DNA of 64,000 nucleotides, taken from Acidimicrobiales bacterium (GTDB lineage Bacteria > Actinomycetota > Acidimicrobiia > Acidimicrobiales > DATDAH01). The position numbers and the translations under genes are program-made. Location: assembly GCA_044221555.1 (NCBI GenBank), contig JBGAOY010000015.1, positions 1,721-65,720 on the forward strand, in the 5' to 3' direction. This document shows, piece after piece, positions 4,818-18,214 of the stretch (its first letter is position 1; each line of letters starts with the position of its first letter). The notes beneath the pieces are model-generated. The model was not told where the DNA came from, searched no databases, and saw only the letters and a program-made list of their open reading frames with translations.

Positions 4818-6560
4818 TCAACGCGTGTGGCCGGCCTCGTCGTCGTCGGCGGCGGCGGCCAGGGACCGGAGCGTCGGCTCGAGCTCGGCCCACATCGCCT
4901 CGGACACCAGGTGGGCGCCGAGCTCGTTGGTGTGGACCTCACCGATGTAGACGTCCGCCTGGTGCCCGTCGAGCGCGTGGGAGAGGCCGATGACGTCATC
5001 GGGGAGGGCGTCGTGGACGTCGGGTGGCCACCCCGCCTGGATCGGCTGCCAGAAGCTGCGCACCGGCGTGTCGTTCCTTCGAGCCAGTTCGGTGACCGTT
5101 CGGTGGGCCCGACCGTAGATCGCCAACGCGGCCTCCTGCTGTGCGGTCGGACCGGCACTGCTGGGAGCGGCCCGCCAGGACGGTGGTTCCTCTGCGCCCA
5201 GGACCTGCTCCGCCACCCGCCACAGGGCGCTGTTGCGCCGGTACGACTCCGTGAGCTCGGCGACGCCCGAGAGGTAGCCGGGCTCGGTCTCGTGCTCGTC
5301 GTGGAAGTCCGAGGCGAGGGCCTGGAGGGCGGAGGCACCGTAGTGGGTCGGCTGTTCCGAGTAGTCGGTGCGCTGCACGAGGAACTCGTTGAACCCGTCG
5401 TAGAACACGATCAGGTCGAACCGGTGGCCGGCGGCGAGGAGCCGTTCGAGATAGAGGTACTCCTGCCAGGCCACCCACGCCGGGAACCCGTAGTTGTGCA
5501 CGTCCAACGCCACGCCGTGAGACTCGGCGATGCGGGCGATCTCGGACGGGATGGTGTGCTGGTCGCGCTGTCCGATGCCGAACATCGTCGACCCGCCGAA
5601 GAAGGCCACCTGGAGGGCCGGCGCGCCGGCAGCGCGGTCGGGTCGGTAGGACCGTCGCTCGCCCCCGGCGACGTTCAGGTAGGTGCCCTCGTAGTCGTGC
5701 GGGGCCGAGATCAGGTACGGGACGTAGGTCGGGTCCTGCAACTGGAAGTCGGCGAGCTCGTCGGCGAACGGGCGCGCCCAGGGCTCACCACCGATGTTCG
5801 GCATGCCCATGACCGCGCGAGCGCTTTCCCGCTTGACGACCAGGAGGTCGCCGCGATCCGAGGGGCGCAACAGCCCCGTGCCCGACAACGCGGCGCCGGC
5901 GGCGACGTCGAGGACCATGGCCACGAGCAGGAATCCAGCCACGGTCAGCACCGTCCTCGTCCGTGAGCGGCTGACGTCGATGGAGGTCGATGGGGTGGGC
6001 GCCTGTGGGTGCGGCGGACCGAGCCCTGCGGCCCGCTCGACCGGCACGCCGGGCCCGATCGATCCGCCCGGCTCGACCGCCCGGGCGGACCGGGTCGTGG
6101 ACGGGCGGCGCCCGCAATGCGGATGCCGGAAATGCACCGTGCCGGCGGGCTCCCGTGCGATCCACCCCTCCCCGTCGGCGTGGAGCATCGCCCTCCTACG
6201 ACGGTGTCGGACCGGGCTGCTGATCAGCCACGCGGGGAGGACGACGAGCCCGAAGGCGAGCGTCACGGACACGGTGGTCAGCGCGCCGATGGTGGCGCGG
6301 ACGGCGGATCCTGTGGCGACTCGAAGGGCGCGCGTCGTCCTCCGTCCGAGCGATGGTGCGAGCACCCCGACCTGGGTCGCCATCACCCCGACGACGACGA
6401 TCGCGCCGATGACGACGTCGGCGCCGGCTGTCCCCGGTCGAACCGCCATGGCGAGGAGAAGCGCCAGGCCGGCGGCCCCGGCGGCGAGCGCGAGTACGTG
6501 TCCTCTCGCTCGTGGCCTCCCGTCGTCCGAGGCGATCGGGACGGGTGCTCCTTGGACCAT
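4818..6560 (-). CDS. Membrane-anchored SGNH/GDSL-fold protein with SxtJ-like N-terminus (paralogue 1)
   Basis: AFFGGSTMFG (block I), FYDGFNE (block III), GEVHTNE (block V, Asp replaced by Gly); start 6560 chosen from GGGAG SD and TATCAT -10. Confidence 0.7.
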   Translation of the reverse strand: MVQGAPVPIASDDGRPRARGHVLALAAGAAGLALLLAMAVRPGTAGADVVIGAIVVVGVMATQVGVLAPSLGRRTTRALRVATGSAVRATIGALTTVSVTLAFGLVVLPAWLISSPVRHRRRRAMLHADGEGWIAREPAGTVHFRHPHCGRRPSTTRSARAVEPGGSIGPGVPVERAAGLGPPHPQAPTPSTSIDVSRSRTRTVLTVAGFLLVAMVLDVAAGAALSGTGLLRPSDRGDLLVVKRESARAVMGMPNIGGEPWARPFADELADFQLQDPTYVPYLISAPHDYEGTYLNVAGGERRSYRPDRAAGAPALQVAFFGGSTMFGIGQRDQHTIPSEIARIAESHGVALDVHNYGFPAWVAWQEYLYLERLLAAGHRFDLIVFYDGFNEFLVQRTDYSEQPTHYGASALQALASDFHDEHETEPGYLSGVAELTESYRRNSALWRVAEQVLGAEEPPSWRAAPSSAGPTAQQEAALAIYGRAHRTVTELARRNDTPVRSFWQPIQAGWPPDVHDALPDDVIGLSHALDGHQADVYIGEVHTNELGAHLVSEAMWAELEPTLRSLAAAADDDEAGHTR

Positions 6561-6723
6561 GGGCTGGCTCCCGATACCGCCATGATAGTGGCCGATGTTC
6601 AACGAGACCTGACCACCATTTGGTGCCCATTCCGCCGGGCCGACCATCGTCATTTCCCGATGATCGTCCACGGGGCACCCCGGCGCGAGCCGGAGACGGT
6701 GACCGACGGGTAGCGTTGCCCAC

Positions 6724-7119
6724 ATGTCGGTGACCGTGACCTTCGAGGGCGACGACCACGCTCACGTCGTGAAACAGGTGCAGGAGTGGCTCGCCACGGT
6801 CGAGGCCGAGCCCGACGGGCCGCTGTCGCCGGCCGAGGCCATCGCCCAGGGGGCCGAGGTGACCAAGGATGCGCTGCGCATCATCGCCCAGGCCGCACCG
6901 CGTCCGATCGCGCAGAACGACGTGTTCCAGCGGCTCACGGGCATGGGCTACAAGGCCACCGATGCCACCAAGAACGCGCTGGTCAGCGGCGTGGGCGCCA
7001 TCGAGGATGCGACCGGCGGCGGTGTGGTCAAAGAGGTGCGCGACACCGGGCGGGGCGCGATCTACGAGATGAACGTGGCCGTGGCCAAGCAGATCCTCAA
7101 GCAGCTCCACGGCGCCTGA
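6724..7119 (+). CDS. Hypothetical protein, 131 aa
   Basis: Typical codon usage; TAGCGT -10 at 6711-6716, 7 nt before ATG. Confidence 0.75.
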   Translation: MSVTVTFEGDDHAHVVKQVQEWLATVEAEPDGPLSPAEAIAQGAEVTKDALRIIAQAAPRPIAQNDVFQRLTGMGYKATDATKNALVSGVGAIEDATGGGVVKEVRDTGRGAIYEMNVAVAKQILKQLHGA

Positions 7120-7131
7120 GCGCCCGGCTGG

Positions 7132-8892
7132 TCAACGACGGTCGGCCAGCGCCTCGACCTGCGGGCCCAGCTCGTCCCACAGTGCCTGTGCCATGAGGTG
7201 GGCGCCGGCTTCGTTGGTGTGCACCTCGTCGATGTACAGCTCGTCCTCGTGGCCGTCGAGCGCATGGGAGACGTCGGTCACCTCGTCCGGCAGGCGGTCG
7301 ATGACACTGGGGTCCCAGCCTGCTTTCGTGGGCTGCCAGAAGAAGTGGACCGGGGTGTCGCTGTCCGCCAGGACGGCGTCGGTGAGGTCGATCGCCCGGC
7401 GGTAGATGCCGAGGGCGGCGTCCCGACGCTGGTCAGGAGTCGCGGTGGAGGTGTACGCGCCCTCGCCCACCGGGTCACCACCACGGAATCGATCGACCAG
7501 GCGGCCCACGGCGCTGAAGCGCGCGTAGGCGGCACCGACCTCGCGGAGCCCCGCCGTGACGGTCTGGGAGGTCTCGTGCTCGTCGTGGTACTCGCCGGCG
7601 AGCTGGTTGACCGTGCCCGCGCCCAGGTGGGTCGGATCGGTCGAGTACCCGGTGTTCTGGACGAGGAACTCGTTGAACCCGTCGTAGAACACCACCAGGT
7701 CGTACTCCTCGCCGGCGGCCACGAGGCGCTCGAGGTACTGGAACTCCTGCCAGCTGACCCAGCCGGGCAGGCCGTAGTTGTGCACTTCCACGGGCACGCC
7801 GGCGTCCTCGGCGAGGCGGGCGAACTCCGACGGGATGGTGTGCTCGTCGCGCTGACCCACGCCGAACATCACCGAGCCGCCCAGGAAGGCGACCCGCAGT
7901 GGGCTCCGGCCGTCGGGGACCGGCGGTTCGTAGGACACGCGCTCGGTGTCGGTCGCGTTGAGGTACCGGCTCTCGAACGCGTGCGGGCCGTTGACCAGGT
8001 ACGGGACGTAGGCCTCGTCGCCCAGTTGGTAGTCGGTGAGCGCCTCGCCGTACTCGGCGGCCCACGGCTCGGACGCGATCGGGGGGGCGGCCATCGTCGT
8101 GCGGACGGCGTCTTCGACGTAGCGCTCGACCTCGCCCCGGTCATCGGGCGGCAGCCCCGCGAGCGTGAGGACGCTGCCGACCACCAGATCCACGATGACC
8201 AGCGCCGCGACCACGGCCAGCGCGGTCACGAGGCGTGGGCGCCGCCGGCGCCACCGACGGGGGGGACGCTGGGGATCCGCGGTGCCGGGCGACGCGGCAG
8301 CGATGTCCTCGCCGCCGGGGCTCGGGGCGGCGGCGGTGCCCTCGGCAGCATCGACGGCATCGTCCTCGGCCGCTGGCTCGGCCTCGACCTCGACCGCTGG
8401 CTCGACCCCTGGCTCGACCCCTGGCGCGGGCTCCTCCACGAGCCGTGCCCGTTGCGGCTCACGTCCGAACATCCGCGGCGCGGCGTCCGTCCGGCTCAGG
8501 GCCTCCCGGGGGATCCAGCCGTGGCCGGCCAGGCCCCTCGGCCGACCCAGGGGCCGCCGGAACACGAGCCCCACCAGCGACACGGGGACGATCACCAGGG
8601 CGAACACCACGGTGAGGAGCGTCCAGGACAGCACCAGCCCCACCACGTGGGCGAACGCGTGAGCGCTGCGGGCCAGGCCTGCCTCGAGGCGGTGGGCGAA
8701 GCCCGGCGAGAGCAGGCTGGCCTGGAACAGCGCGAACACCGCGGCGATCAGTGCCAGTGCAGCCACGAGGTGGCCGGTGAGCAGGAGCGCGACGATGACG
8801 CCGAGCGCGCCCAGCGGCGCGAGGCGTACGAAGACGCGCTCGCGCCGGCCCGACGTCGGGGCATCGAGCGGCCCCCAGCCGGGGGCGCTCAC
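7132..8892 (-). CDS. Membrane-anchored SGNH/GDSL-fold protein with SxtJ-like N-terminus (paralogue 2)
   Basis: AFLGGSVMFG, FYDGFNE, IDEVHTNE; clear similarity to 4818-6560. Confidence 0.75.
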   Translation of the reverse strand: MSAPGWGPLDAPTSGRRERVFVRLAPLGALGVIVALLLTGHLVAALALIAAVFALFQASLLSPGFAHRLEAGLARSAHAFAHVVGLVLSWTLLTVVFALVIVPVSLVGLVFRRPLGRPRGLAGHGWIPREALSRTDAAPRMFGREPQRARLVEEPAPGVEPGVEPAVEVEAEPAAEDDAVDAAEGTAAAPSPGGEDIAAASPGTADPQRPPRRWRRRRPRLVTALAVVAALVIVDLVVGSVLTLAGLPPDDRGEVERYVEDAVRTTMAAPPIASEPWAAEYGEALTDYQLGDEAYVPYLVNGPHAFESRYLNATDTERVSYEPPVPDGRSPLRVAFLGGSVMFGVGQRDEHTIPSEFARLAEDAGVPVEVHNYGLPGWVSWQEFQYLERLVAAGEEYDLVVFYDGFNEFLVQNTGYSTDPTHLGAGTVNQLAGEYHDEHETSQTVTAGLREVGAAYARFSAVGRLVDRFRGGDPVGEGAYTSTATPDQRRDAALGIYRRAIDLTDAVLADSDTPVHFFWQPTKAGWDPSVIDRLPDEVTDVSHALDGHEDELYIDEVHTNEAGAHLMAQALWDELGPQVEALADRR

Positions 8893-11950: not shown

Positions 11951-13510
11951 GTGACCGACCGCGGCGTGGAGGTCGGGGCCACCCCCACGGTCCTGGTCGT
12001 CGACTTCGGGGCCCAGTACGCACAGCTCATCGCGCGCCGTGTGCGCGAGGCCCACGTCTACAGCGAGATCGTCCCCCACGCCATCACCGCGGCCGAGGTG
12101 GCCGAGCGGGCGCCGGTCGCCATCATCTTGTCGGGTGGCCCGGCCTCGGTGAACGTCGAGGGGGCGCCCCGGCTCGACCCGGCGATCTACGACCTCGGCA
12201 TCCCGGTGCTCGGCATCTGCTACGGCGCCCAACTCGTCGCCCTGCAACTCGGGGGCGAGGTGGCGGGCACCGGCAAGGGTGAGTACGGGCGAACCACCCT
12301 CGAGGTGGTCAACCCGGGCCTGCTGATCCACGACTACCCCCCGGCCACCCAGGAAGTCTGGATGAGCCACTTCGACTCCATCGTGGCCGCGCCCGAGGGC
12401 TTCACCGTCACCGCGAAGACCGCGGACGTGCCCGCGGCGGCCTTCGAAGACCCCGATCGGGGCCTGTTCGCCGTGCAGTTCCACCCCGAGGTCGGCCACA
12501 CCCCGCAGGGCCAGGCCATCCTCGAGCGCTTCCTGTACGAGGGCGCCGGGTGCTCGCCGTCGTGGACCATGCGCTCGATCATCGACCAGTCCGTCGAGAA
12601 CATCCGGGCCCAGGTCGGCGACGAGAAGGTGATCTGCGGTCTGTCGGGTGGCGTCGACTCGGCCGTGGCCGCCGCCCTCGTGCACAAGGCGGTGGGCCAC
12701 CAGCTCACGTGCGTGTTCGTCGACACCGGCCTCATGCGCCGCGACGAGGGCGAGCAGGTGGTCGAGACCTTCCGCCGCAGCCAGGGCATCGAGCTGATCC
12801 ACGTGCAGGCCGCCGAGCGCTTCTTCGAGCGCCTCACCGGCATCGTCGACCCCGAGGAGAAGCGCAAGACCATCGGGGAGCTGTTCATCCGGGTCTTCGA
12901 GGAGGCAGCCGGGGGCCTGTCCGACGCCCGTTTCCTGGTGCAGGGCACGCTCTACCCCGACGTCATCGAGTCGGGCACCCCCGACGCCGCCCGCATCAAG
13001 AGCCACCACAACGTGGGCGGGCTGCCCGACGACATGGACTTCGAGCTGGTCGAGCCTCTACGGGCCCTGTTCAAGGACGAGGTCCGCGAGGTCGGCCGCG
13101 AGCTCGGGCTGCCCGACGAGATCGTGTGGCGCCAACCGTTCCCCGGCCCCGGCCTGGGTGTGCGCATCATCGGCGAGGTCACGCCCGACCGGGTGGCCAT
13201 CCTGCAACACGCCGACGCCATCGTGCGCGAAGAGGTGAAGGCCGCCGGCCTCGAGCGTGAGATCTGGCAGGCGTTCGCGGTGCTGCCCGACATCCGCAGC
13301 GTCGGCGTGATGGGCGACGAGCGCACCTACGCCTACCCCATCATCGTGCGGGCGGTCACCAGCGAGGACGCCATGACGGCCGACTGGGCCCGCATCCCCT
13401 ACGACGTGCTCGAGAAGTTCTCGTCGAGGATCATCAACGAGGTGCGCGGCGTGAACCGTGTCGTCTACGACATCACGTCGAAGCCGCCGGGGACGATCGA
13501 GTGGGAGTAG
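11951..13510 (+). CDS. guaA: GMP synthase (glutamine-hydrolysing)
   Basis: [50 protein letters not shown]. Confidence 0.98.
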
Positions 13511-13520
13511 TGGTGGCGGT

Positions 13521-13543
13521 CGTCAGCCGCTGACCGGCTGACG
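13521..13543. terminator. Hairpin between convergent guaA and tatA
   Basis: CGTCAGCCG-ctgac-CGGCTGACG perfect 9-bp stem. Confidence 0.5.
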
Positions 13544-13583
13544 CCTCCTCCCGCGCTGCACGGGGCGACGGGCGGCGGCGTGC

Positions 13584-13826
13584 TCAGCGCTCCACGTGGG
13601 TCGCCCGGGGGTCGGTGACGACCACGGGCTCGGTGACCACGGCGGGCTCAGCGACGACGACGGGCTCAGCGACGACGGGGACGGCCTTGGCGGGCTCGTC
13701 GGAGCCGGCCTTGAACTCGCGCTGGGCCTGGCCCAGGGAGCGGGCCAGGTCGGGGACCTTGCGGGCGCCGAAGAGCAACATGACGACGGCGAGGATGATC
13801 AGGAGTTCGGGGGCTCCGAGGCTCAT
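13584..13826 (-). CDS. tatA: Twin-arginine translocase TatA/TatE subunit
   Basis: MSLGAPELLIILAVVMLLFGARKVPDLARSLG; GAAAGGA SD; C-terminal 18-bp EPVVV repeats. Confidence 0.93.
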   Translation of the reverse strand: MSLGAPELLIILAVVMLLFGARKVPDLARSLGQAQREFKAGSDEPAKAVPVVAEPVVVAEPAVVTEPVVVTDPRATHVER

Positions 13827-13857
13827 GGGAGTTCCTTTCACGGGACTGTGACTGGTG

Positions 13858-13884
13858 TACGGAGCGACCGGCGGCGGCGGATGA
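13858..13884 (-). promoter_or_regulatory. ECF-sigma-type promoter for tatA (TCATCC-N16-CCGTA)
   Basis: Reverse complement of 13879-13884 and 13858-13862, 16-nt spacer; same motif before tatB and the ferritin-like pair. Confidence 0.6.
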
Positions 13885-13897
13885 GAGGAGGTTCACC

Positions 13898-13924
13898 TCG
13901 TCCGGAACCGTCCCCGGCTCCGTA
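13898..13924 (+). promoter_or_regulatory. ECF-sigma-type promoter for tatBC (TCGTCC-N16-CCGTA)
   Basis: 13898-13903 and 13920-13924, 16-nt spacer. Confidence 0.55.
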
Positions 13925-14001
13925 TCGGGGGCATGACCGCCCTCCCTCGCCCGTGTCCCCCGGCCCTGGCGGCCGTCGCCGCCCGACGCGGGTAGACCGC
14001 C

Positions 14002-14280
14002 GTGTTCAACATCGGCGGTGCCGAGCTCCTGGTGATCCTCCTGGTCGCCCTGCTCGTGCTCGGCCCCGACAAGCTGCCGCAGGCCGCGCGCCAGGTGGGA
14101 CGCGCCGTCGGTGAGTTCCAGCGCATCGCCGGCGGCTTCCGAGACGAGATCCGCAGCGCCCTCGACGGGGAGGAGGACGCGGCCGGCCGGGCCGGGAAGG
14201 TCGACGACGCCGGCCGCCGCTCGACCACGGCGCGGGCGCCCGAACCGTCGTCCCCCGCCGATGGGCAGGTGCCGACGTGA
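14002..14280 (+). CDS. tatB: Twin-arginine translocase TatB
   Basis: MFNIGGAELLVILLVALLVLGPDKLPQAARQVG. Confidence 0.93.
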   Translation: MFNIGGAELLVILLVALLVLGPDKLPQAARQVGRAVGEFQRIAGGFRDEIRSALDGEEDAAGRAGKVDDAGRRSTTARAPEPSSPADGQVPT

Positions 14281-15050
14281 CCGCCACCACCGCACGGCCC
14301 GTCGCCCGGGCGCCCGAGCCATCCCAGATGACGCTCTTCGAGCACCTGTCCGAGCTGCGCAACCGGCTGTTCAAGGCCGTGGTGGCCGTGGTGCTGGGCG
14401 GCGTCATCTGCTGGCTCTTCTACAACCAGATCCTCGACGTCCTGGTCCAGCCCTACTGCGACATCCAGGGCGGGGACTGCAGCCTCTTCGTCACCGACCC
14501 GCTCGAGGGCTTCCGGACCCGACTGCAGATCGCGGGTTACGGCGGTGTGTTCCTGGCCATGCCGGTCATCCTGTGGCAGGTCTGGCGCTTCATCACCCCC
14601 GGGCTCCACGAGCACGAGAAGCGCTACGCACTGCCCTTCGTGGCGTCGGCGGTGACGTTGTTCGCGATGGGTGCCGCCCTGGCGTTCTGGACCCTCCCCA
14701 AGGCCCTCGACTTCCTGATCAGCATCGGCGGGAGCGACCTGCAGGAGATCTACTCCCCGGCGAAGTACCTCAGCCTCATCACCTACATGATGCTGGCGTT
14801 CGGGGTGGGTTTCGAGTTCCCGATCCTGCTGGTGTTCCTGCAGATGGCCGGCATCGTCTCACCCGAGAAGCTGGCCGGGTCGCGGCGCTGGGCCATCGTC
14901 ATCATCTTCGTCGGGGTGGCGGTGCTGACCCCCAGTGGTGACCCCTACAGCCAGATCGTGCTGTCGGTCCCGATGGTCCTGTTCTACGAGGTGTCGATCC
15001 TGATCGGTCGAGCCTTGCGACGCCGTCGGGTCGCCGCGATCGAGGCCTGA
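14277..15050 (+). CDS. tatC: Twin-arginine translocase TatC
   Basis: MTLFEHLSELRNRL, FITPGLHEHEKRY, FEFP, LTPSGDPYSQ. Confidence 0.96.
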   Translation: MTATTARPVARAPEPSQMTLFEHLSELRNRLFKAVVAVVLGGVICWLFYNQILDVLVQPYCDIQGGDCSLFVTDPLEGFRTRLQIAGYGGVFLAMPVILWQVWRFITPGLHEHEKRYALPFVASAVTLFAMGAALAFWTLPKALDFLISIGGSDLQEIYSPAKYLSLITYMMLAFGVGFEFPILLVFLQMAGIVSPEKLAGSRRWAIVIIFVGVAVLTPSGDPYSQIVLSVPMVLFYEVSILIGRALRRRRVAAIEA

Positions 15051-15052
15051 GG

Positions 15053-15079
15053 TCATCCGTCGGACCGGATGGCTCCGGA
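15053..15079 (+). promoter_or_regulatory. ECF-sigma-type promoter for ferritin-like pair (TCATCC-N16-CCGGA)
   Basis: 15053-15058 and 15075-15079, 16-nt spacer, upstream of GAGGAG SD and ATG 15124. Confidence 0.55.
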
Positions 15080-15123
15080 TGCCAACCAGTACCCCCGACC
15101 ACACCACGACGAGGAGACACACC

Positions 15124-15981
15124 ATGAGTGTCGATGACAGGGGGCTACGAGAGTTGATCTCGGAGTCCCAGGACCTGCAGAGCGACGCACTGCGAGGTGC
15201 CCGGGCGAACGCCTCCGCGGTGCAGGAGATCGGTGCGTCCCGACGGGGCCAGACGCCGGACCTGGACAAGACCAGGCACGTCAACCGCGAGCGCCGCCGA
15301 CTGCTGCGCAACGGTGGCTTCGGCATGGGGGCGCTCGCCGCCCGTGGGCTGCTCGGATCGGCCTTCGGTGCCGCGGTGATGAACATCGTGGCCAGCCCGG
15401 CCGGTGCCCAGGAGGACGTCGACGTGATGATCCTCCAGACCGCGGCGTCGTTGGAGAACCTGGCCGTGGCGACCTACGAGGCTGCGCTGACCCTGCCCTT
15501 CATCAAGAACGGCAACGCGGTGGTCAAGACCTTCGCCATGACCACCATGGACCAGCACACCGAGCACGGCGCCTCGTTCAACGCCCAGGCCGCGAGCCTG
15601 GGCGGTGAGCGCCAGACGGAGGCGAACCCCAAGTACGCCCCGATCGTGGAGGACGCCAAGCCCGGCTTGGACTCGCCGCTGAAGGTCGTCGACCTGGCCG
15701 CCACCCTCGAAGAGGTGGCCACGGACACGTACCTGGCCAACCTGTCGCTGGTGCAGGACGCGGAGACCCGCACCCTGTTCGCCAGCGTGATGGGTGTCGA
15801 GTCGCAGCACCTCGCCGTGCTGCGAGCCGTCAAGGCGCTCCTCGAGGCCGATGCGGCCGATCTGATCGCCTTGCCGCCCGACATCGCCGCCTACCCGGCG
15901 GCCGCCGGCAGCGTGGCCTTCCCCGAACCGTTCGAAGCGCCAGACATGGCCAGCCCGCCCGAGGAGGGTGCCGTCCGATGA
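15124..15981 (+). CDS. Ferritin-like domain protein with long-n-region Tat signal
   Basis: Internal ERRRLLRNGG, AGA-Q cleavage site; four-helix motifs LENLAVATYE, QHTEH, LEEVATDTY, VESQH. Confidence 0.8.
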   Translation: MSVDDRGLRELISESQDLQSDALRGARANASAVQEIGASRRGQTPDLDKTRHVNRERRRLLRNGGFGMGALAARGLLGSAFGAAVMNIVASPAGAQEDVDVMILQTAASLENLAVATYEAALTLPFIKNGNAVVKTFAMTTMDQHTEHGASFNAQAASLGGERQTEANPKYAPIVEDAKPGLDSPLKVVDLAATLEEVATDTYLANLSLVQDAETRTLFASVMGVESQHLAVLRAVKALLEADAADLIALPPDIAAYPAAAGSVAFPEPFEAPDMASPPEEGAVR

Positions 15982-16673
15982 CCACCGAGACCGAAGCGAT
16001 CAACCCTGTGGGGCCCCCTGCATCCAGCGGGCTCAGCCGCCGCAAGTTCCTCGCGGTGAGCGGCATGACCGCCGGCGTGGCCGTCATCGCCGTCGCCTGC
16101 GGCAGCGACGACAACGCATCGGGCACCGACCCGACGACGGCCACCACGGCCGCCGCCGGTGGCAGCACGACGGTCACCGCAGGAGGTGGCGGGGGTGACC
16201 TCGCCATCGCCGCTGGCGCCGCCGGGCTCGAGGTGCTGGCCGTGAACACCTACGGGGCTGCGCTCGACGCGGCCACCGCCGGTGATCTCGGTGACGTGCC
16301 CCCCGCGGTCGCGGAGTTCGCGACCAAGGCCAAGGACCAGCATCAGGCCGCGCTGGACGCATGGAACGGCGTGCTCACGGACAACGGCGAGTCGGCCGTG
16401 AGCGATCCGCCGGCCGACCTCGAGGCCACCGTCAACGACGCGTTCGCCGAGGTCACCGACGTCACCGGTGTCGCCGAGTTGGCGTTGATGCTCGAGGGCA
16501 TCGCCGCGGACACGTACCTGGACGCCCAGTCCATGCTGGAGGGCGGCGATGCCAAGCAGTTGGCGGGCTCGATCCAGGTGGTCGATCGCCAGCACATCGC
16601 GATCCTCAACTACGTCCTGGGTGAGTATCCCGTGCCCGACACCTTCCAGTCGGCGGAGAACTCCGTCCTCTAG
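15978..16673 (+). CDS. Ferritin-like domain Tat lipoprotein
   Basis: SRRKFL then IAVA-C lipobox; LEVLAVNTY, LEGIAADTY, VDRQH. Confidence 0.8.
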   Translation: MTTETEAINPVGPPASSGLSRRKFLAVSGMTAGVAVIAVACGSDDNASGTDPTTATTAAAGGSTTVTAGGGGGDLAIAAGAAGLEVLAVNTYGAALDAATAGDLGDVPPAVAEFATKAKDQHQAALDAWNGVLTDNGESAVSDPPADLEATVNDAFAEVTDVTGVAELALMLEGIAADTYLDAQSMLEGGDAKQLAGSIQVVDRQHIAILNYVLGEYPVPDTFQSAENSVL

Positions 16674-16681
16674 GTGGGCCT

Positions 16682-16719
16682 CGGGCGGGGATCGGGAGGG
16701 CGAACCCGGTCCCCGCCCG
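16682..16719 (+). terminator. GC-rich hairpin after ferritin-like operon
   Basis: CGGGCGGGGATCGGG-agggcgaa-CCCGGTCCCCGCCCG. Confidence 0.5.
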
Positions 16720-16873
16720 GTGTGTGCTCGCGCACCCCGGATCGGTGCTGTGTAGCCGGTCCGGGGTGCGTCGCGTCCCCGCCGCGGCCGGTGTGCTCGG
16801 GCCATTCGCCTCTGGCCCACCGCCGCCGGCGGGTCGACAGTGGAGGCACACCCTCGATGCAGGAGCGGTACTG

Positions 16874-18214
16874 ATGCTCTCCCACCGGCACGTCCCCCGA
16901 CTCACCGCCGTGGCCGTGGCCCTTGCGGCCCTTGCCCTCGTGTCGTTCACCGCCGGCGCTTCGGCCGGCGCCGCGGGTCGCGGGTCCGCCCCTGCGCCCG
17001 TCGTGGAGACGGCACTGAGCGGTGTGGCCCACGTCACCACCGGCGAGAACCACAGCTGCGCCTTGATGGCCAGCGGCCAGGTGCGCTGCTGGGGTCGGAA
17101 CGCCGACGGCCAGCTCGGTGACGGCACCCGCACGTCACGCAGCCGTCCCGTCACCGTGCTGAATGCCGCTGGGTCCGGCCCCCTCACCGGCGTGGCCCAG
17201 GTCATCGCCGGCGCGAACCACACCTGCGCCCGGTTGACCAACGGCAAGGCCAGCTGCTGGGGCGACAACGCCGACGGTCAACTGGGTGACGGCACCACCA
17301 CCGATCGCCTGCGACCCACGAAAGTGGTCGGCTCGTCGGGGACGGGCGCGCTCCGGACCATCACCCTGCTCACCGCCGACGGCTCCCATTCGTGCGCCCT
17401 CCTCGCGTCGACCGAGGCGAGGTGCTGGGGGGACGACACGTACGGGGCCCTCGGCGACGGCCTCGGCAGCACCGGCGAGCGGGTGATCTCGGCCGTGCCC
17501 GTGGCCGTCGTCGCCACGACCGACCCCGGGTCGCTGACCGGCATCACCCACCTCGTCACCGGGGGCGGCCACTCCTGCGCCGTGCTCGCGAACGGGCAGG
17601 CCCGGTGCTGGGGCATCAACGGGTTCGGCGAGCTCGGCGACGGGGTCATCGGCATGGATGGCGCACCTCGACCGGTGGTGGTGCTCAACGGCACCGGGAC
17701 CGGCCCCCTGACCGGCGTCAGCCTGGTGAGCGCCGGTGTGGCCCACAGCTGCGCGGTGATGACCAACGCTCGGGCCCGGTGCTGGGGTTCGGACACCGCG
17801 GACTACGTCCACTACGGGCAGCTGGGCACCCGCAGCGATTCGAGCTACCCCGCGACGGTCCTGAACAGCAGCGGCTCGGCGCCCCTCACCGGTGTGTCGA
17901 TGATCCGGGCCGGTGACGGGCACACGTGCGCCCGCCTGTCGGCCGGCCTCGCAGCGTGCTGGGGGGCGAACTACGACGGCCGCCTGGGCATCGGCCGCAG
18001 CGGCATGGACGCCGACCGCGACGTCCCCGTGCTGGTGCAGAACACCGCCGGCACCGCCGCACTGACGGGTGTCTCCGAGGTCGCCGCCGGCGGCGCGCAC
18101 AACTGCGCCCGCCTCTCGGCGGGTCTGGCGGCGTGCTGGGGCTCGAACTCGTACGGCCAGCTGGGCGACGGCACCCACACGCAACGGACCCGGCCCGTGC
18201 TCGTCATCCTGTAG
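16874..18214 (+). CDS. Secreted RCC1/BLIP-II-repeat beta-propeller protein
   Basis: Signal peptide; about seven repeats of GxxHxCA...CWGxNxxGQLGDG; SD CAGGAG before ATG 16874. Confidence 0.85.
   Translation: MLSHRHVPRLTAVAVALAALALVSFTAGASAGAAGRGSAPAPVVETALSGVAHVTTGENHSCALMASGQVRCWGRNADGQLGDGTRTSRSRPVTVLNAAGSGPLTGVAQVIAGANHTCARLTNGKASCWGDNADGQLGDGTTTDRLRPTKVVGSSGTGALRTITLLTADGSHSCALLASTEARCWGDDTYGALGDGLGSTGERVISAVPVAVVATTDPGSLTGITHLVTGGGHSCAVLANGQARCWGINGFGELGDGVIGMDGAPRPVVVLNGTGTGPLTGVSLVSAGVAHSCAVMTNARARCWGSDTADYVHYGQLGTRSDSSYPATVLNSSGSAPLTGVSMIRAGDGHTCARLSAGLAACWGANYDGRLGIGRSGMDADRDVPVLVQNTAGTAALTGVSEVAAGGAHNCARLSAGLAACWGSNSYGQLGDGTHTQRTRPVLVIL

What the first reader, a model, noticed from the sequence alone, without database searches (positions are those of the whole stretch)
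13584..16673. Tat translocase and its ferritin-like cargo share one ECF-sigma promoter motif
Seen: TCATCC-N16-CCGTA before tatA (minus, 13884-13858), TCGTCC-N16-CCGTA before tatBC (13898-13924) and TCATCC-N16-CCGGA before the ferritin-like pair (15053-15079), all with an identical 16-nt spacer. Known (from memory, verify): mycobacterial SigK-type ECF promoters read roughly CCATCC...CCGAA. In most Actinobacteria tatAC and tatB are unlinked housekeeping genes. Inference: a stress-inducible, dedicated Tat system co-regulated with two metal-binding four-helix cargo proteins. The sigma/anti-sigma pair is not in this window.
Basis: partly seen in the sequence, partly recalled or inferred. Interest (0 to 1): 0.7.

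Follow-up and report, generated by a model that had tools for sequence, protein, structure and literature searches.

The report
SigK-type promoters drive Tat paralog and cargo
An activated-sludge actinobacterium carries a second copy of its Tat protein-export machine beside two exported ferritin-like proteins, and all three transcription units start with the same alternative-sigma-factor promoter, a wiring that recurs in shuffled gene orders across its whole order.

Summary
They share a longer consensus, TC(A/G)TCC-N13-GCTCCG(T/G)A. This consensus has only five exact matches in the 5.9-Mb genome, all intergenic. Three are in the window. A fourth precedes a molybdoenzyme–fasciclin operon, and fasciclin genes are the classic SigK target.

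The one congener that has this locus keeps all three boxes while the spacers have diverged (1/33 versus 19/48 changes).

Across Acidimicrobiales, C(A/G)TCC-N16-CCGNA lies on the sense strand:
- upstream of 10 of 28 fer1 orthologues;
- upstream of 22 of 80 housekeeping tatC genes;
- at other spacings in only 0–3 loci, and never antisense.

The gene maps show a recurring module: SigK-like sigma and RskA, cupredoxin, fer1, fer2, and tatA/B/C. The likely cognate sigma/RskA pair of this genome lies on another contig (C32), next to a cupredoxin and a second ferritin-like pair.

The window's tatBC is a recent duplicate (TatC 78% identical) of the housekeeping tatBC, which lacks the motif here.

I read this as a real SigK-type ECF regulon that co-induces Tat capacity and cofactor-bearing Tat cargo. 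Transcription starts, the inducing signal and cargo function remain unproven.

The parts
13584..13826 (-). tatA paralogue (80 aa)
   Evidence: Pfam TatA_B_E 55.5 bits. NCBIfam tatAE TIGR01411 59 bits, above the 53.9 cut-off. 61-69% identical to the two other TatA proteins of the genome. Metatranscriptome contigs cover 13500-13835.
13858..13884 (-). SigK-type promoter-like site before tatA: TCATCC-N16-CCGTA (extended -10: GCTCCGTA)
   Evidence: Both boxes are unchanged in the congener G011 while 8 of 16 spacer bases differ. Two RNA contigs end at 13835, inside the predicted transcription start.
13898..13924 (+). SigK-type promoter-like site before tatBC: TCGTCC-N16-CCGTA
   Evidence: CGTCC and CTCCGTA are kept in G011 while 6 of 16 spacer bases differ. 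The same CGTCC-N16-CCGTA box precedes tatB in L116 and tatC in L030, L048, L057, L058 and L060.
14002..14280 (+). tatB paralogue (92 aa)
   Evidence: NCBIfam tatB TIGR01410 63.4 bits, above the 56.5 cut-off. 78% identical over 55 aa to the housekeeping TatB at C11.
14277..15050 (+). tatC paralogue (257 aa); its start overlaps the tatB stop
   Evidence: Pfam TatC 235 bits. TIGR00945 209 bits, above the 132.7 cut-off. 78% identical to the C11 TatC. In the tree it is sister to the genus's housekeeping copies.
15053..15079 (+). SigK-type promoter-like site before fer1-fer2: TCATCC-N16-CCGGA (extended -10: GCTCCGGA)
   Evidence: Boxes unchanged in G011 with 5 of 16 spacer changes. (g)TCATCC-N15/16-(C/A)CG(A/T)A lies at the same place before most fer1 orthologues of the order. 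An RNA contig starts at 15104, and none spans 15010-15103.
15124..15981 (+). fer1: ferritin-like (PF13668) protein with a conserved ~60-aa N-terminal region, an RRxLLR motif, a hydrophobic stretch and an AxA site
   Evidence: Pfam Ferritin_2 59.7 bits. Orthologues found in 67 of 301 genomes of the order. Invariant E111, Q144-H145, H148, E196 and Q228-H229. In the AF2 model the core, residues 99-241, has pLDDT 75-91. The best PDB fold matches are ferritin-like, bacterioferritin and Dps structures, at weak E-values of about 0.03.
15978..16673 (+). fer2: ferritin-like (PF13668) predicted Tat lipoprotein (SRRKFLAV ... IAVA-CGS)
   Evidence: Pfam Ferritin_2 60.8 bits. The SRRxFL motif plus the lipobox Cys is present in every orthologue whose match reaches the N-terminus.

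Best explanation
The three sites are promoters read by a SigK-type ECF sigma factor (ECF19-like) that is held in check by an RskA-type membrane anti-sigma factor. In this genome the most likely cognate pair is encoded on contig C32 (sigma at C32:3437-4015, RskA at C32:4012-4863). That pair sits in an operon with a cupredoxin and a second ferritin-like pair.

Proposed mechanism (inferred): when RskA releases the sigma factor, RNA polymerase starts at three points in the window. Two are divergent starts for tatA and tatBC, and the third is for fer1-fer2. It also starts at the sigma gene's own promoter and at a molybdoenzyme-fasciclin operon (C20). The cell then makes extra Tat translocase together with folded, cofactor-bearing envelope proteins that need it: the Tat lipoprotein fer2, fer1, a Tat-type cupredoxin lipoprotein and a molybdopterin oxidoreductase.

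The window's tatA/tatBC set is a recent duplicate of the housekeeping genes that has taken over this inducible role. In other Acidimicrobiales the same promoter type sits directly in front of the housekeeping tatC, or of tat genes placed next to fer1-fer2.

Shown: motif presence, its rarity, its strict spacing and orientation, its conservation, the gene linkage and the paralogy.

Inferred: that it is a promoter, which sigma reads it, the inducing signal (probably an envelope redox or metal stress) and the cargo's chemistry.
For: 1. Rarity. The 14-position consensus has 5 exact hits in the genome, all intergenic, against 0.03 expected in intergenic DNA.
2. Footprint. In the congener's syntenic locus the boxes changed at 1 of 33 positions and the spacers at 19 of 48 (Fisher P=1.4e-4).
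3. fer1 orthologues. C[AG]TCC-N16-CCGNA lies on the sense strand within 250 nt upstream in 10 of 28 loci. It is never antisense, and other spacers give 0-3 loci. Most of the remaining loci have N15 or one-mismatch variants at the same place.
4. Housekeeping tatC. The same pattern is found in 22 of 80 loci, against 0-1 for spacers 10-22 and 0 antisense. It lies in coding DNA in some lineages and in non-coding DNA in others.
5. Gene maps. The module sigma-RskA / cupredoxin / fer1 / fer2 / tatA(BC) recurs with sites before the sigma gene, tatA, tatB, the cupredoxin gene and fer1. L116 has the same divergent tatBC<>tatA promoter pair plus a fer1 promoter.
6. The sigma. Sigma genes next to fer1 orthologues are 56-64% identical to the C32 sigma. 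Its best NCBIfam model is SigK at 177 bits, against 141 for the next model. It is followed by a zf-HC2 + RskA_C anti-sigma gene and preceded by CCATCC-N16-CCGAA.
7. Canonical target. An exact-consensus site precedes an Oxidored_molyb + Fasciclin operon. That operon carries the motif in several other genomes and is often next to SigK-like/RskA genes. A fasciclin (mpt83)-sigK-rskA cassette with a conserved SigK site is the described core of SigK regulons (PMC7509140).
8. RNA. tatA, tatC, fer1 and fer2 are represented in sludge metatranscriptomes. Contigs stop at 13835 and start at 15104, each 15-20 nt inside the predicted transcription start, and none covers the boxes.
Against: - There is no transcription-start mapping, no expression data under defined conditions and no sigma-binding data. 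The RNA evidence is low-depth assembled contigs.
- The -10 boxes in the window (CCGTA, CCGGA) differ from those at the sigma genes of this genome (CCGAA). Three SigK-like sigma/RskA pairs exist, so the assignment to C32 rests on orthology of neighbours in other genomes.
- The C32 sigma scores below NCBIfam's SigK cut-off (177 against 226 bits) and has no cysteines.
- The loose pattern is not enriched genome-wide.
- One exact site (C67) has no obvious downstream gene.
- The published SigK consensus could not be read in the papers held.
Confidence: 0.8

Rival explanations
1. The sites are real SigK-type promoters, but they are read by one of the two other SigK-like sigma factors (the C39 pairs that flank a fasciclin gene), or by several paralogues with overlapping specificity, rather than by the C32 sigma.
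For: - Three sigma/RskA_C pairs exist.
- The C39 sigma-1 gene and the C39 fasciclin gene carry GCATCC-N16-CCGA(A/T).
- The exact window-type consensus also precedes a fasciclin operon, which in other genomes sits beside a SigK-like sigma gene.
- All three sigmas have the SigK model first or a near-tied second among their NCBIfam matches.
Against: - Only C32-type sigma genes (56-64% identity) were found next to fer1 orthologues. The C39-type query gave only weaker hits, 30-34% identical, to those same genes.
- The C32 sigma scores much higher on the SigK model than the C39 sigmas (177 against 108-109 bits).
Confidence: 0.12
2. The bipartite motif is the binding site of a conventional transcription factor (activator or repressor), not a promoter.
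For: No transcription start is mapped. A small LuxR-type regulator gene lies divergent from a second fer1-fer2-tatA cluster in the congener.
Against: - The motif is asymmetric and strictly oriented towards the downstream gene (0 antisense hits).
- It has a rigid 15-16 nt spacing of the kind seen between -35 and -10 elements.
- It lies 30-160 nt before start codons.
- It also precedes the ECF sigma genes themselves, which looks like autoregulation.
- It precedes fasciclin genes, the classic SigK targets.
Confidence: 0.05
3. The three matches are chance similarities in GC-rich intergenic DNA and have no function.
For: The pattern was defined after it had been seen.
Against: - Clustering P is about 4e-5 to 1e-4, and the extended consensus is found only in intergenic DNA.
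- Boxes are kept while spacers change in the congener.
- Enrichment is specific to spacing and strand in two independent sets of orthologous loci from many families.
Confidence: 0.03

Closest known systems
Mycobacterial SigK-RskA regulon (ECF19; mpt83/mpt70 fasciclin cassette)
   Same: - An ECF sigma factor paired with an RskA-type membrane anti-sigma factor.
- A small regulon with a conserved bipartite site before the sigma locus and before fasciclin-domain genes.
- SigK sites are reported as conserved across Actinobacteria (PMC7509140, citing Veyrier 2008).
- This genome has fasciclin/sigK/rskA clusters with (C/G)CATCC-N16-CCGA(A/T) and a fasciclin operon with the window's exact consensus.
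   Different: - The targets here include Tat translocase genes, two PF13668 ferritin-like proteins, a cupredoxin and a molybdoenzyme. I found none of these described as SigK targets.
- The C32 sigma lacks the redox-sensing cysteine pair and scores below NCBIfam's SigK cut-off.
- The organism is an Acidimicrobiia from activated sludge, not a member of the Corynebacteriales.
Bacillus subtilis phoD-tatAd-tatCd (a second, cargo-linked, starvation-induced Tat translocase)
   Same: Both have an extra Tat translocase encoded next to its presumed cargo and expressed with it under a dedicated regulatory signal, alongside a constitutive Tat system elsewhere in the genome. The B. subtilis facts are from my own knowledge.
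   Different: - Control in B. subtilis is by the PhoPR two-component system, not an ECF sigma factor.
- The B. subtilis system is TatAC only, whereas here a full TatA + TatB + TatC set is present.
- The cargo here is a ferritin-like pair, not a phosphodiesterase.
- Substrate specificity of the window's paralogue is untested.
PF13668 (Ferritin_2) proteins: FeMP metabolite phosphatases and desiccation-related proteins (RvFeMP-1, DRB0118, PCC13-62)
   Same: fer1 and fer2 match PF13668 above the gathering score. They have a four-helix bundle core and conserved carboxylate/histidine positions. Characterised family members bind two metal ions and are linked to stress tolerance (PMC11616004).
   Different: - There is no sequence hit to any solved structure.
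- The ligand pattern (QHxEH, ExQH) differs from the one described for RvFeMP-1.
- fer1 and fer2 are exported or lipid-anchored and occur as an obligate pair.
- Phosphatase activity is untested.

Membership tests
ECF sigma factor, SigK/ECF19 type (candidate regulator, C32:3437-4015) | Sigma-70 regions 2 and 4 only (ECF architecture) | tested here: met
   Pfam Sigma70_r2, Sigma70_r4_2 and Sigma70_ECF in a 192-aa protein.
ECF sigma factor, SigK/ECF19 type (candidate regulator, C32:3437-4015) | Adjacent RskA-type anti-sigma factor | tested here: met
   The next gene has zf-HC2, RskA_N and RskA_C (57 bits, above the 29.4 cut-off).
ECF sigma factor, SigK/ECF19 type (candidate regulator, C32:3437-4015) | Scores above NCBIfam's curated SigK subfamily cut-off (NF007228) | tested here: not met
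   It is the best of 76 models at 177.4 bits, but the cut-off is 226. I therefore call it SigK-like, not SigK.
ECF sigma factor, SigK/ECF19 type (candidate regulator, C32:3437-4015) | Redox-sensing cysteine pair (C133/C183 of M. tuberculosis SigK; conserved in 56% of ECF19 according to PMC7509140) | tested here: not met
   The C32 sigma sequence contains no cysteine. This feature is not universal in the group.
SigK regulon | Conserved bipartite site before the sigma locus and before a fasciclin (mpt83-like) gene | tested here: met
   CCATCC-N16-CCGAA before the C32 sigma gene. GCATCC-N16-CCGAA and GCATCC-N16-CCGAT before the C39 sigma and fasciclin genes. TCATCC-N16-CCGGA before the C20 molybdoenzyme-fasciclin operon. 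The site recurs in the order.
SigK regulon | Transcription of the window's genes depends on the sigma factor, with starts just after the -10 box | not testable with these tools
   Only low-depth metatranscriptome contigs are available. Their ends at 13835 and 15104 are compatible with the prediction but not decisive.
Twin-arginine translocase (TatABC) | TatA, TatB and TatC family membership above curated cut-offs | tested here: met
   TIGR01411 at 59 bits (cut-off 53.9), TIGR01410 at 63.4 (cut-off 56.5) and TIGR00945 at 209 (cut-off 132.7).
Tat substrates (cargo claim) | N-terminal S/T-R-R-x-F-L-K motif, a hydrophobic region and a cleavage site | tested here: met
   fer2 has SRRKFLAV plus the lipobox A-C-G. 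These are present in every orthologue whose match reaches the N-terminus. The test is sequence reading only; export itself is untested.
Tat substrates (cargo claim) | The same, for fer1 | tested here: inconclusive
   An RRxLLR motif, a hydrophobic stretch and an AxA site are present in most orthologues. They come after a conserved ~60-aa N-terminal region, and several orthologues lack the RR pair. fer1 could instead be an N-in membrane anchor.
Ferritin_2 (PF13668) | Match above the Pfam gathering score; four-helix bundle with a dinuclear-metal ligand set | tested here: met
   59.7 and 60.8 bits against the 24.7 cut-off. Invariant Glu/His positions. The model core resembles bacterioferritin and Dps (TM 0.65-0.77 normalised to the target, at weak E-values of about 0.03). 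Metal content and activity are not testable here.

The most novel reading that the evidence does not exclude
Acidimicrobiales may have an order-wide envelope-stress module, not described before as far as I could find. In it, a SigK-like sigma/RskA pair switches on the Tat export machine itself together with a fixed set of cofactor-bearing exported proteins: a cupredoxin, a heterodimeric PF13668 ferritin-like pair and a molybdoenzyme-fasciclin pair. These proteins would form an extracytoplasmic redox or metal-handling system. In this genus the module has captured its own duplicated TatABC, and the conserved 60-aa region ahead of fer1's twin-arginine motif would serve as a dedicated targeting or quality-control handle for that translocase.
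Probability: 0.3. Interest if true: 0.75.

Novelty: new variant of a known kind. Interest (0 to 1): 0.6.

Why it matters
- **SigK's function.** SigK/RskA is a well-studied mycobacterial regulator whose signal and physiological role are still unknown (PMC7509140). A related regulon whose members are all folded, cofactor-bearing exported proteins plus their translocase gives a concrete functional hypothesis: remodelling of envelope redox or metal chemistry.
- **Tat regulation.** This would be an example of a translocase being regulated together with its cargo by an ECF sigma factor. It includes a natural case of duplication and division of labour between a housekeeping and an inducible Tat system.
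- **PF13668 proteins.** It points to a function and a partner set for bacterial PF13668 proteins, which are almost uncharacterised.
- **Practical use.** The consensus (G)TCATCC-N16-CCG(A/T/G)A can be used to annotate this regulon in Acidimicrobiia, which are abundant in wastewater treatment plants.

Tried and rejected
- **Genome-wide spacing test of the loose pattern.** It showed no enrichment at N16, so that argument was dropped. I used the extended consensus and comparative tests instead.
- **Looking for the motif before every ECF sigma gene of the genome.** My crude gene calls show it only before the C32 sigma gene. The C39 sites had been seen by eye, inside an over-extended gene call.
- **Published SigK consensus.** Veyrier 2008 (PMC2258859) is not held, the supplements of the ECF reclassification paper are not held, and no other held paper gave the sequence. 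The comparison with mycobacterial SigK sites therefore rests on memory plus internal calibration at this genome's own sigK/rskA/fasciclin loci.
- **Metatranscriptomes.** Eight RNA runs were laid. They contain only sparse assembled contigs, which show presence of transcripts but do not map transcription starts.
- **Sigma-70 and terminator consensus scan of 13500-16900.** Nothing was found, which is uninformative at 72% GC.
- **Sequence search of fer1 against solved structures.** No hit. NCBIfam has no model for fer1 or fer2.
- **Earlier notes of this scan.** Nothing bears on this locus.
- **Idea that the motif between tatB and tatC in relatives reflects a conserved peptide.** Rejected. The site lies in coding DNA in some lineages and in intergenic DNA in others, and only the two boxes are conserved.


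Full report
**1. The observation**

The three boxes are in the sequence exactly as described.
- TCATCC-N16-CCGTA lies on the minus strand at 13884-13858, 31 nt before the tatA ATG at 13826.
- TCGTCC-N16-CCGTA lies at 13898-13924, 77 nt before the tatB GTG at 14002.
- TCATCC-N16-CCGGA lies at 15053-15079, 44 nt before the fer1 ATG at 15124.

The fer1 start is the ATG at 15124, not the longer ORF from 15079. The stretch between them carries a 5-nt indel relative to the congener, and the Shine-Dalgarno-like GAGGAG and the ATG are conserved.

The genes are tatA (13584-13826, minus), tatB (14002-14280), tatC (14277-15050) and two PF13668 Ferritin_2 genes (15124-15981 and 15978-16673).

**2. Is it more than chance?**

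Three of the 18 hits lie within 1.2 kb, which gives a corrected P of about 4e-5 to 1e-4.

All three sites also share GCT before the second box. This gives TC(A/G)TCC-N13-GCTCCG(T/G)A. That consensus is expected 0.32 times in the genome and 0.03 times in the roughly 618 kb that my crude gene calls leave non-coding. It occurs five times, always in non-coding DNA. The two hits outside the window are:
- C20:50750, directly before an operon encoding a membrane-anchored molybdopterin oxidoreductase and a fasciclin-domain protein;
- C67:155499, just after another tatA gene.

**3. The organism and its Tat genes**

Related loci come from Acidimicrobiales/Microthrixaceae metagenome-assembled genomes. 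DNA runs that hold the stretch come from activated sludge and wastewater.

The genome has two tatC genes and five tatA/B-family genes. The second tatBC is at C11:248083-249338. It sits between pafBC-like genes and a large helicase gene, and 75 of 80 related tatC loci have the helicase gene beside tatC, most with the pafBC-like genes upstream. That copy is therefore the housekeeping one, and in this genome it lacks the motif.

The window's TatC is 78% identical to the C11 copy, and its TatB is 78% identical over the conserved 55 residues. In a TatC tree the window copy and its orthologue in a congener lie next to the genus's housekeeping copies. This indicates a recent duplication.

**4. Conservation in the orthologous locus**

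Among the 17 other genomes of the family, only one (G011, same genus) has the locus. It is syntenic: guaA, tatA, then divergent tatB-tatC-fer1-fer2. All three sites are at the same places there.

The boxes differ at 1 of 33 positions and the spacers at 19 of 48 (Fisher P=1.4e-4). The two genomes are close, with 82-85% identity over the aligned stretches, which include the flanking gene ends. This footprint is therefore supportive, not decisive.

**5. Conservation across the order**

This is the strongest evidence.

*fer1.* Orthologues (44-63% identical, always followed by a fer2 gene) occur in 67 of 301 sampled genomes of the order. In 28 fetched loci, C[AG]TCC-N16-CCGNA lies on the sense strand within 250 nt upstream of fer1 in 10. 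It is never antisense, and spacers 10-22 other than 16 give 0-3 loci. Most of the remaining loci have the same site with a 15-nt spacer or one mismatch, for example cgtCATCC-N16-ACGAA, at the same distance.

*Housekeeping tatC.* In the 80 related tatC loci, C[AG]TCC-N16-CCG[AT]A lies on the sense strand within 300 nt upstream of tatC in 22. Every other spacing gives 0-1, and the antisense strand gives 0. In some lineages the site is inside the variable 3' end of tatB, and in others it is intergenic. Only the boxes are conserved, so it does not reflect a conserved peptide.

*Gene maps.* One search shows a recurring module: RskA and sigma on one strand, then, divergently, (tatA) - cupredoxin - fer1 - fer2 - (tatA/tatB/tatC). 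Sites precede the sigma gene, tatA, tatB, the cupredoxin gene and fer1. Locus L116 reads tatC<tatB< site-site >tatA>cupredoxin> site >fer1>fer2. This is the same logic as the window with the genes shuffled.

**6. The missing regulator**

No sigma factor is encoded on the window's contig. The genome has three ECF sigma genes followed by RskA_C anti-sigma genes.
- Two of them flank a fasciclin gene on C39. GCATCC-N16-CCGAA precedes one of the two sigma genes and GCATCC-N16-CCGAT the fasciclin gene; no clear site precedes the other.
- The third, on C32, is preceded by CCATCC-N16-CCGAA. It heads a cluster of sigma, RskA, cupredoxin and two further Ferritin_2 proteins. The same cluster is present in G011.

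Sigma genes found beside fer1 orthologues in other families are 56-64% identical to the C32 sigma. They are only 30-34% identical to the C39 type. The C32 sigma's best NCBIfam model is SigK at 177 bits, against 141 for the next model, but this is below the curated cut-off of 226 bits. It has no cysteines, so it lacks the redox switch of M. tuberculosis SigK.

I conclude that the C32 pair is the most likely regulator of the window's genes. Cross-recognition by the C39 paralogues is the main alternative.

**7. Calibration against known SigK biology**

I could not read the published SigK consensus.

PMC7509140 states that a fasciclin (mpt83)-sigK-rskA cassette with a SigK binding site is conserved across Actinobacteria and beyond. 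It also states that the inducing signal is unknown.

This genome provides an internal calibration. Its own sigK/rskA/fasciclin loci carry the CATCC-N16-CCGA(A/T) site. The molybdoenzyme-fasciclin operon, which carries the window's exact consensus, shows the motif at N15/16 in about ten other genomes and is often adjacent to a SigK-like sigma gene, in two of the three cases with an RskA gene. At orthologous promoters the fourth base of the second box varies among A, T and G. The window's CCGTA and CCGGA therefore fall within the tolerated range.

**8. The cargo**

*fer2.* fer2 has SRRKFLAV followed by a lipobox cysteine. Every orthologue whose match reaches the N-terminus keeps both, so it is a predicted Tat lipoprotein.

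*fer1.* fer1 has an RRxLLR motif, a hydrophobic stretch and an AxA site. These follow a conserved ~60-aa N-terminal region, and some orthologues lack the arginine pair. Its export route is therefore less certain.

*Other regulon members.* The C32 cupredoxin (…VTRRLFALAV…AACGS) also reads as a Tat-type lipoprotein. The molybdoenzyme has an RRRFL motif after its membrane domain.

*Fold.* The AF2 model of fer1 is confident only in its core, residues 99-241 (pLDDT 75-91). The best PDB fold matches to the model are ferritin-like, bacterioferritin and Dps structures, at weak E-values of about 0.03. Glu and His positions are invariant.

*Function.* The only characterised PF13668 members are dinuclear-metal metabolite phosphatases linked to desiccation tolerance (PMC11616004). 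The function here is open.

**9. RNA**

Sludge metatranscriptome contigs cover tatA, parts of tatC, fer1 and fer2 at low depth. Two runs of one study have contigs that end at 13835, where the predicted tatA start is about 13849-13853. One contig begins at 15104, where the predicted fer1 start is about 15084-15088. None covers the boxes or the 13856-13969 spacer. This is compatible with the model but does not map transcription starts.

**10. Verdict**

What is new relative to described SigK regulons is the target set: the Tat translocase itself, a ferritin-like pair, a cupredoxin and a molybdoenzyme. Its conservation, in rearranged form, across an order is also new.

The principle of an extra, cargo-linked, inducible Tat system is already known from B. 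subtilis phoD-tatAdCd (from my own knowledge). I therefore rate this a new variant of a known kind.

Still inferences:
- promoter activity itself;
- the identity of the sigma factor;
- the inducing signal;
- the substrate specificity of the paralogous translocase;
- the chemistry of the ferritin-like pair.

Noticed in passing
G000 contig C67:155473-155499 (minus strand), outside the window (locus L139): An exact copy of the consensus (TCATCC-N13-GCTCCGGA) lies a few bases after the stop of a third tatA gene and directly before a GGGTGAG-cccc-CTCACCC hairpin. The next same-strand gene is about 720 nt away, and a WYL/HTH-type regulator gene lies antisense. It could drive a small or antisense RNA, or it could be a relic.
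   Followed up: partly
window 15124-15330 (first ~65 codons of fer1) and the orthologues in L109-L136: A conserved ~60-aa N-terminal region (consensus IDxxxLxELIxESQDLQxDAxR; D4, S15 and D17 invariant) precedes the twin-arginine-like motif. This is unusually long for a signal-peptide n-region. It has no Pfam match and low AF2 confidence. It could be a targeting or chaperone handle, or a cytoplasmic domain of an N-in membrane anchor.
   Followed up: partly
L015-L086 (housekeeping tatB-tatC loci of other Acidimicrobiales), about 40-160 nt upstream of tatC: 22 of 80 loci carry CATCC-N16-CCGAA or CGTCC-N16-CCGTA between tatB and tatC, or inside the 3' end of tatB. This suggests an internal ECF-type promoter for the housekeeping tatC.
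   Followed up: yes
G011:C43 (locus L107, about 5537-7776): The congener has a third ferritin-like cluster, fer1'-fer2'-tatA' (62-67% identical to the window's proteins). It is divergent from a small LuxR-type HTH gene that carries ATCATCC-N16-CCGAA. No matching site was seen before fer1' itself.
   Followed up: partly
G000 contig C31:3579-5158: A further tatA gene lies immediately upstream of another ECF sigma gene and a zinc-finger anti-sigma gene, with WhiB-like genes nearby. This recalls the sigE-rseA-htrA-tatB neighbourhood of mycobacteria (from memory).
   Followed up: no
G000 C55:216959 (+), C1:41989 (-), C21:34981 (+), C11:560484 (-), C12:22088 (+): Weaker candidate sites (CATCC-N16-[CA]CG[AG]A) lie upstream of a glutamate-cysteine-ligase-like gene, a WhiB-like gene, an MFS transporter gene, a DivIVA-like gene and a small unknown gene. 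They are possible further regulon members or chance hits.
   Followed up: no
whole genome, intergenic DNA: CATCC-N20-CCG is about twice as frequent in intergenic regions as it is at neighbouring spacings (58 against 23-40). This may reflect a dispersed repeat element unrelated to this finding.
   Followed up: no
window 16874-18214 (+): Immediately downstream of fer2 is a secreted RCC1-repeat (beta-propeller) protein of 446 aa. It has its own upstream region and no motif.
   Followed up: no
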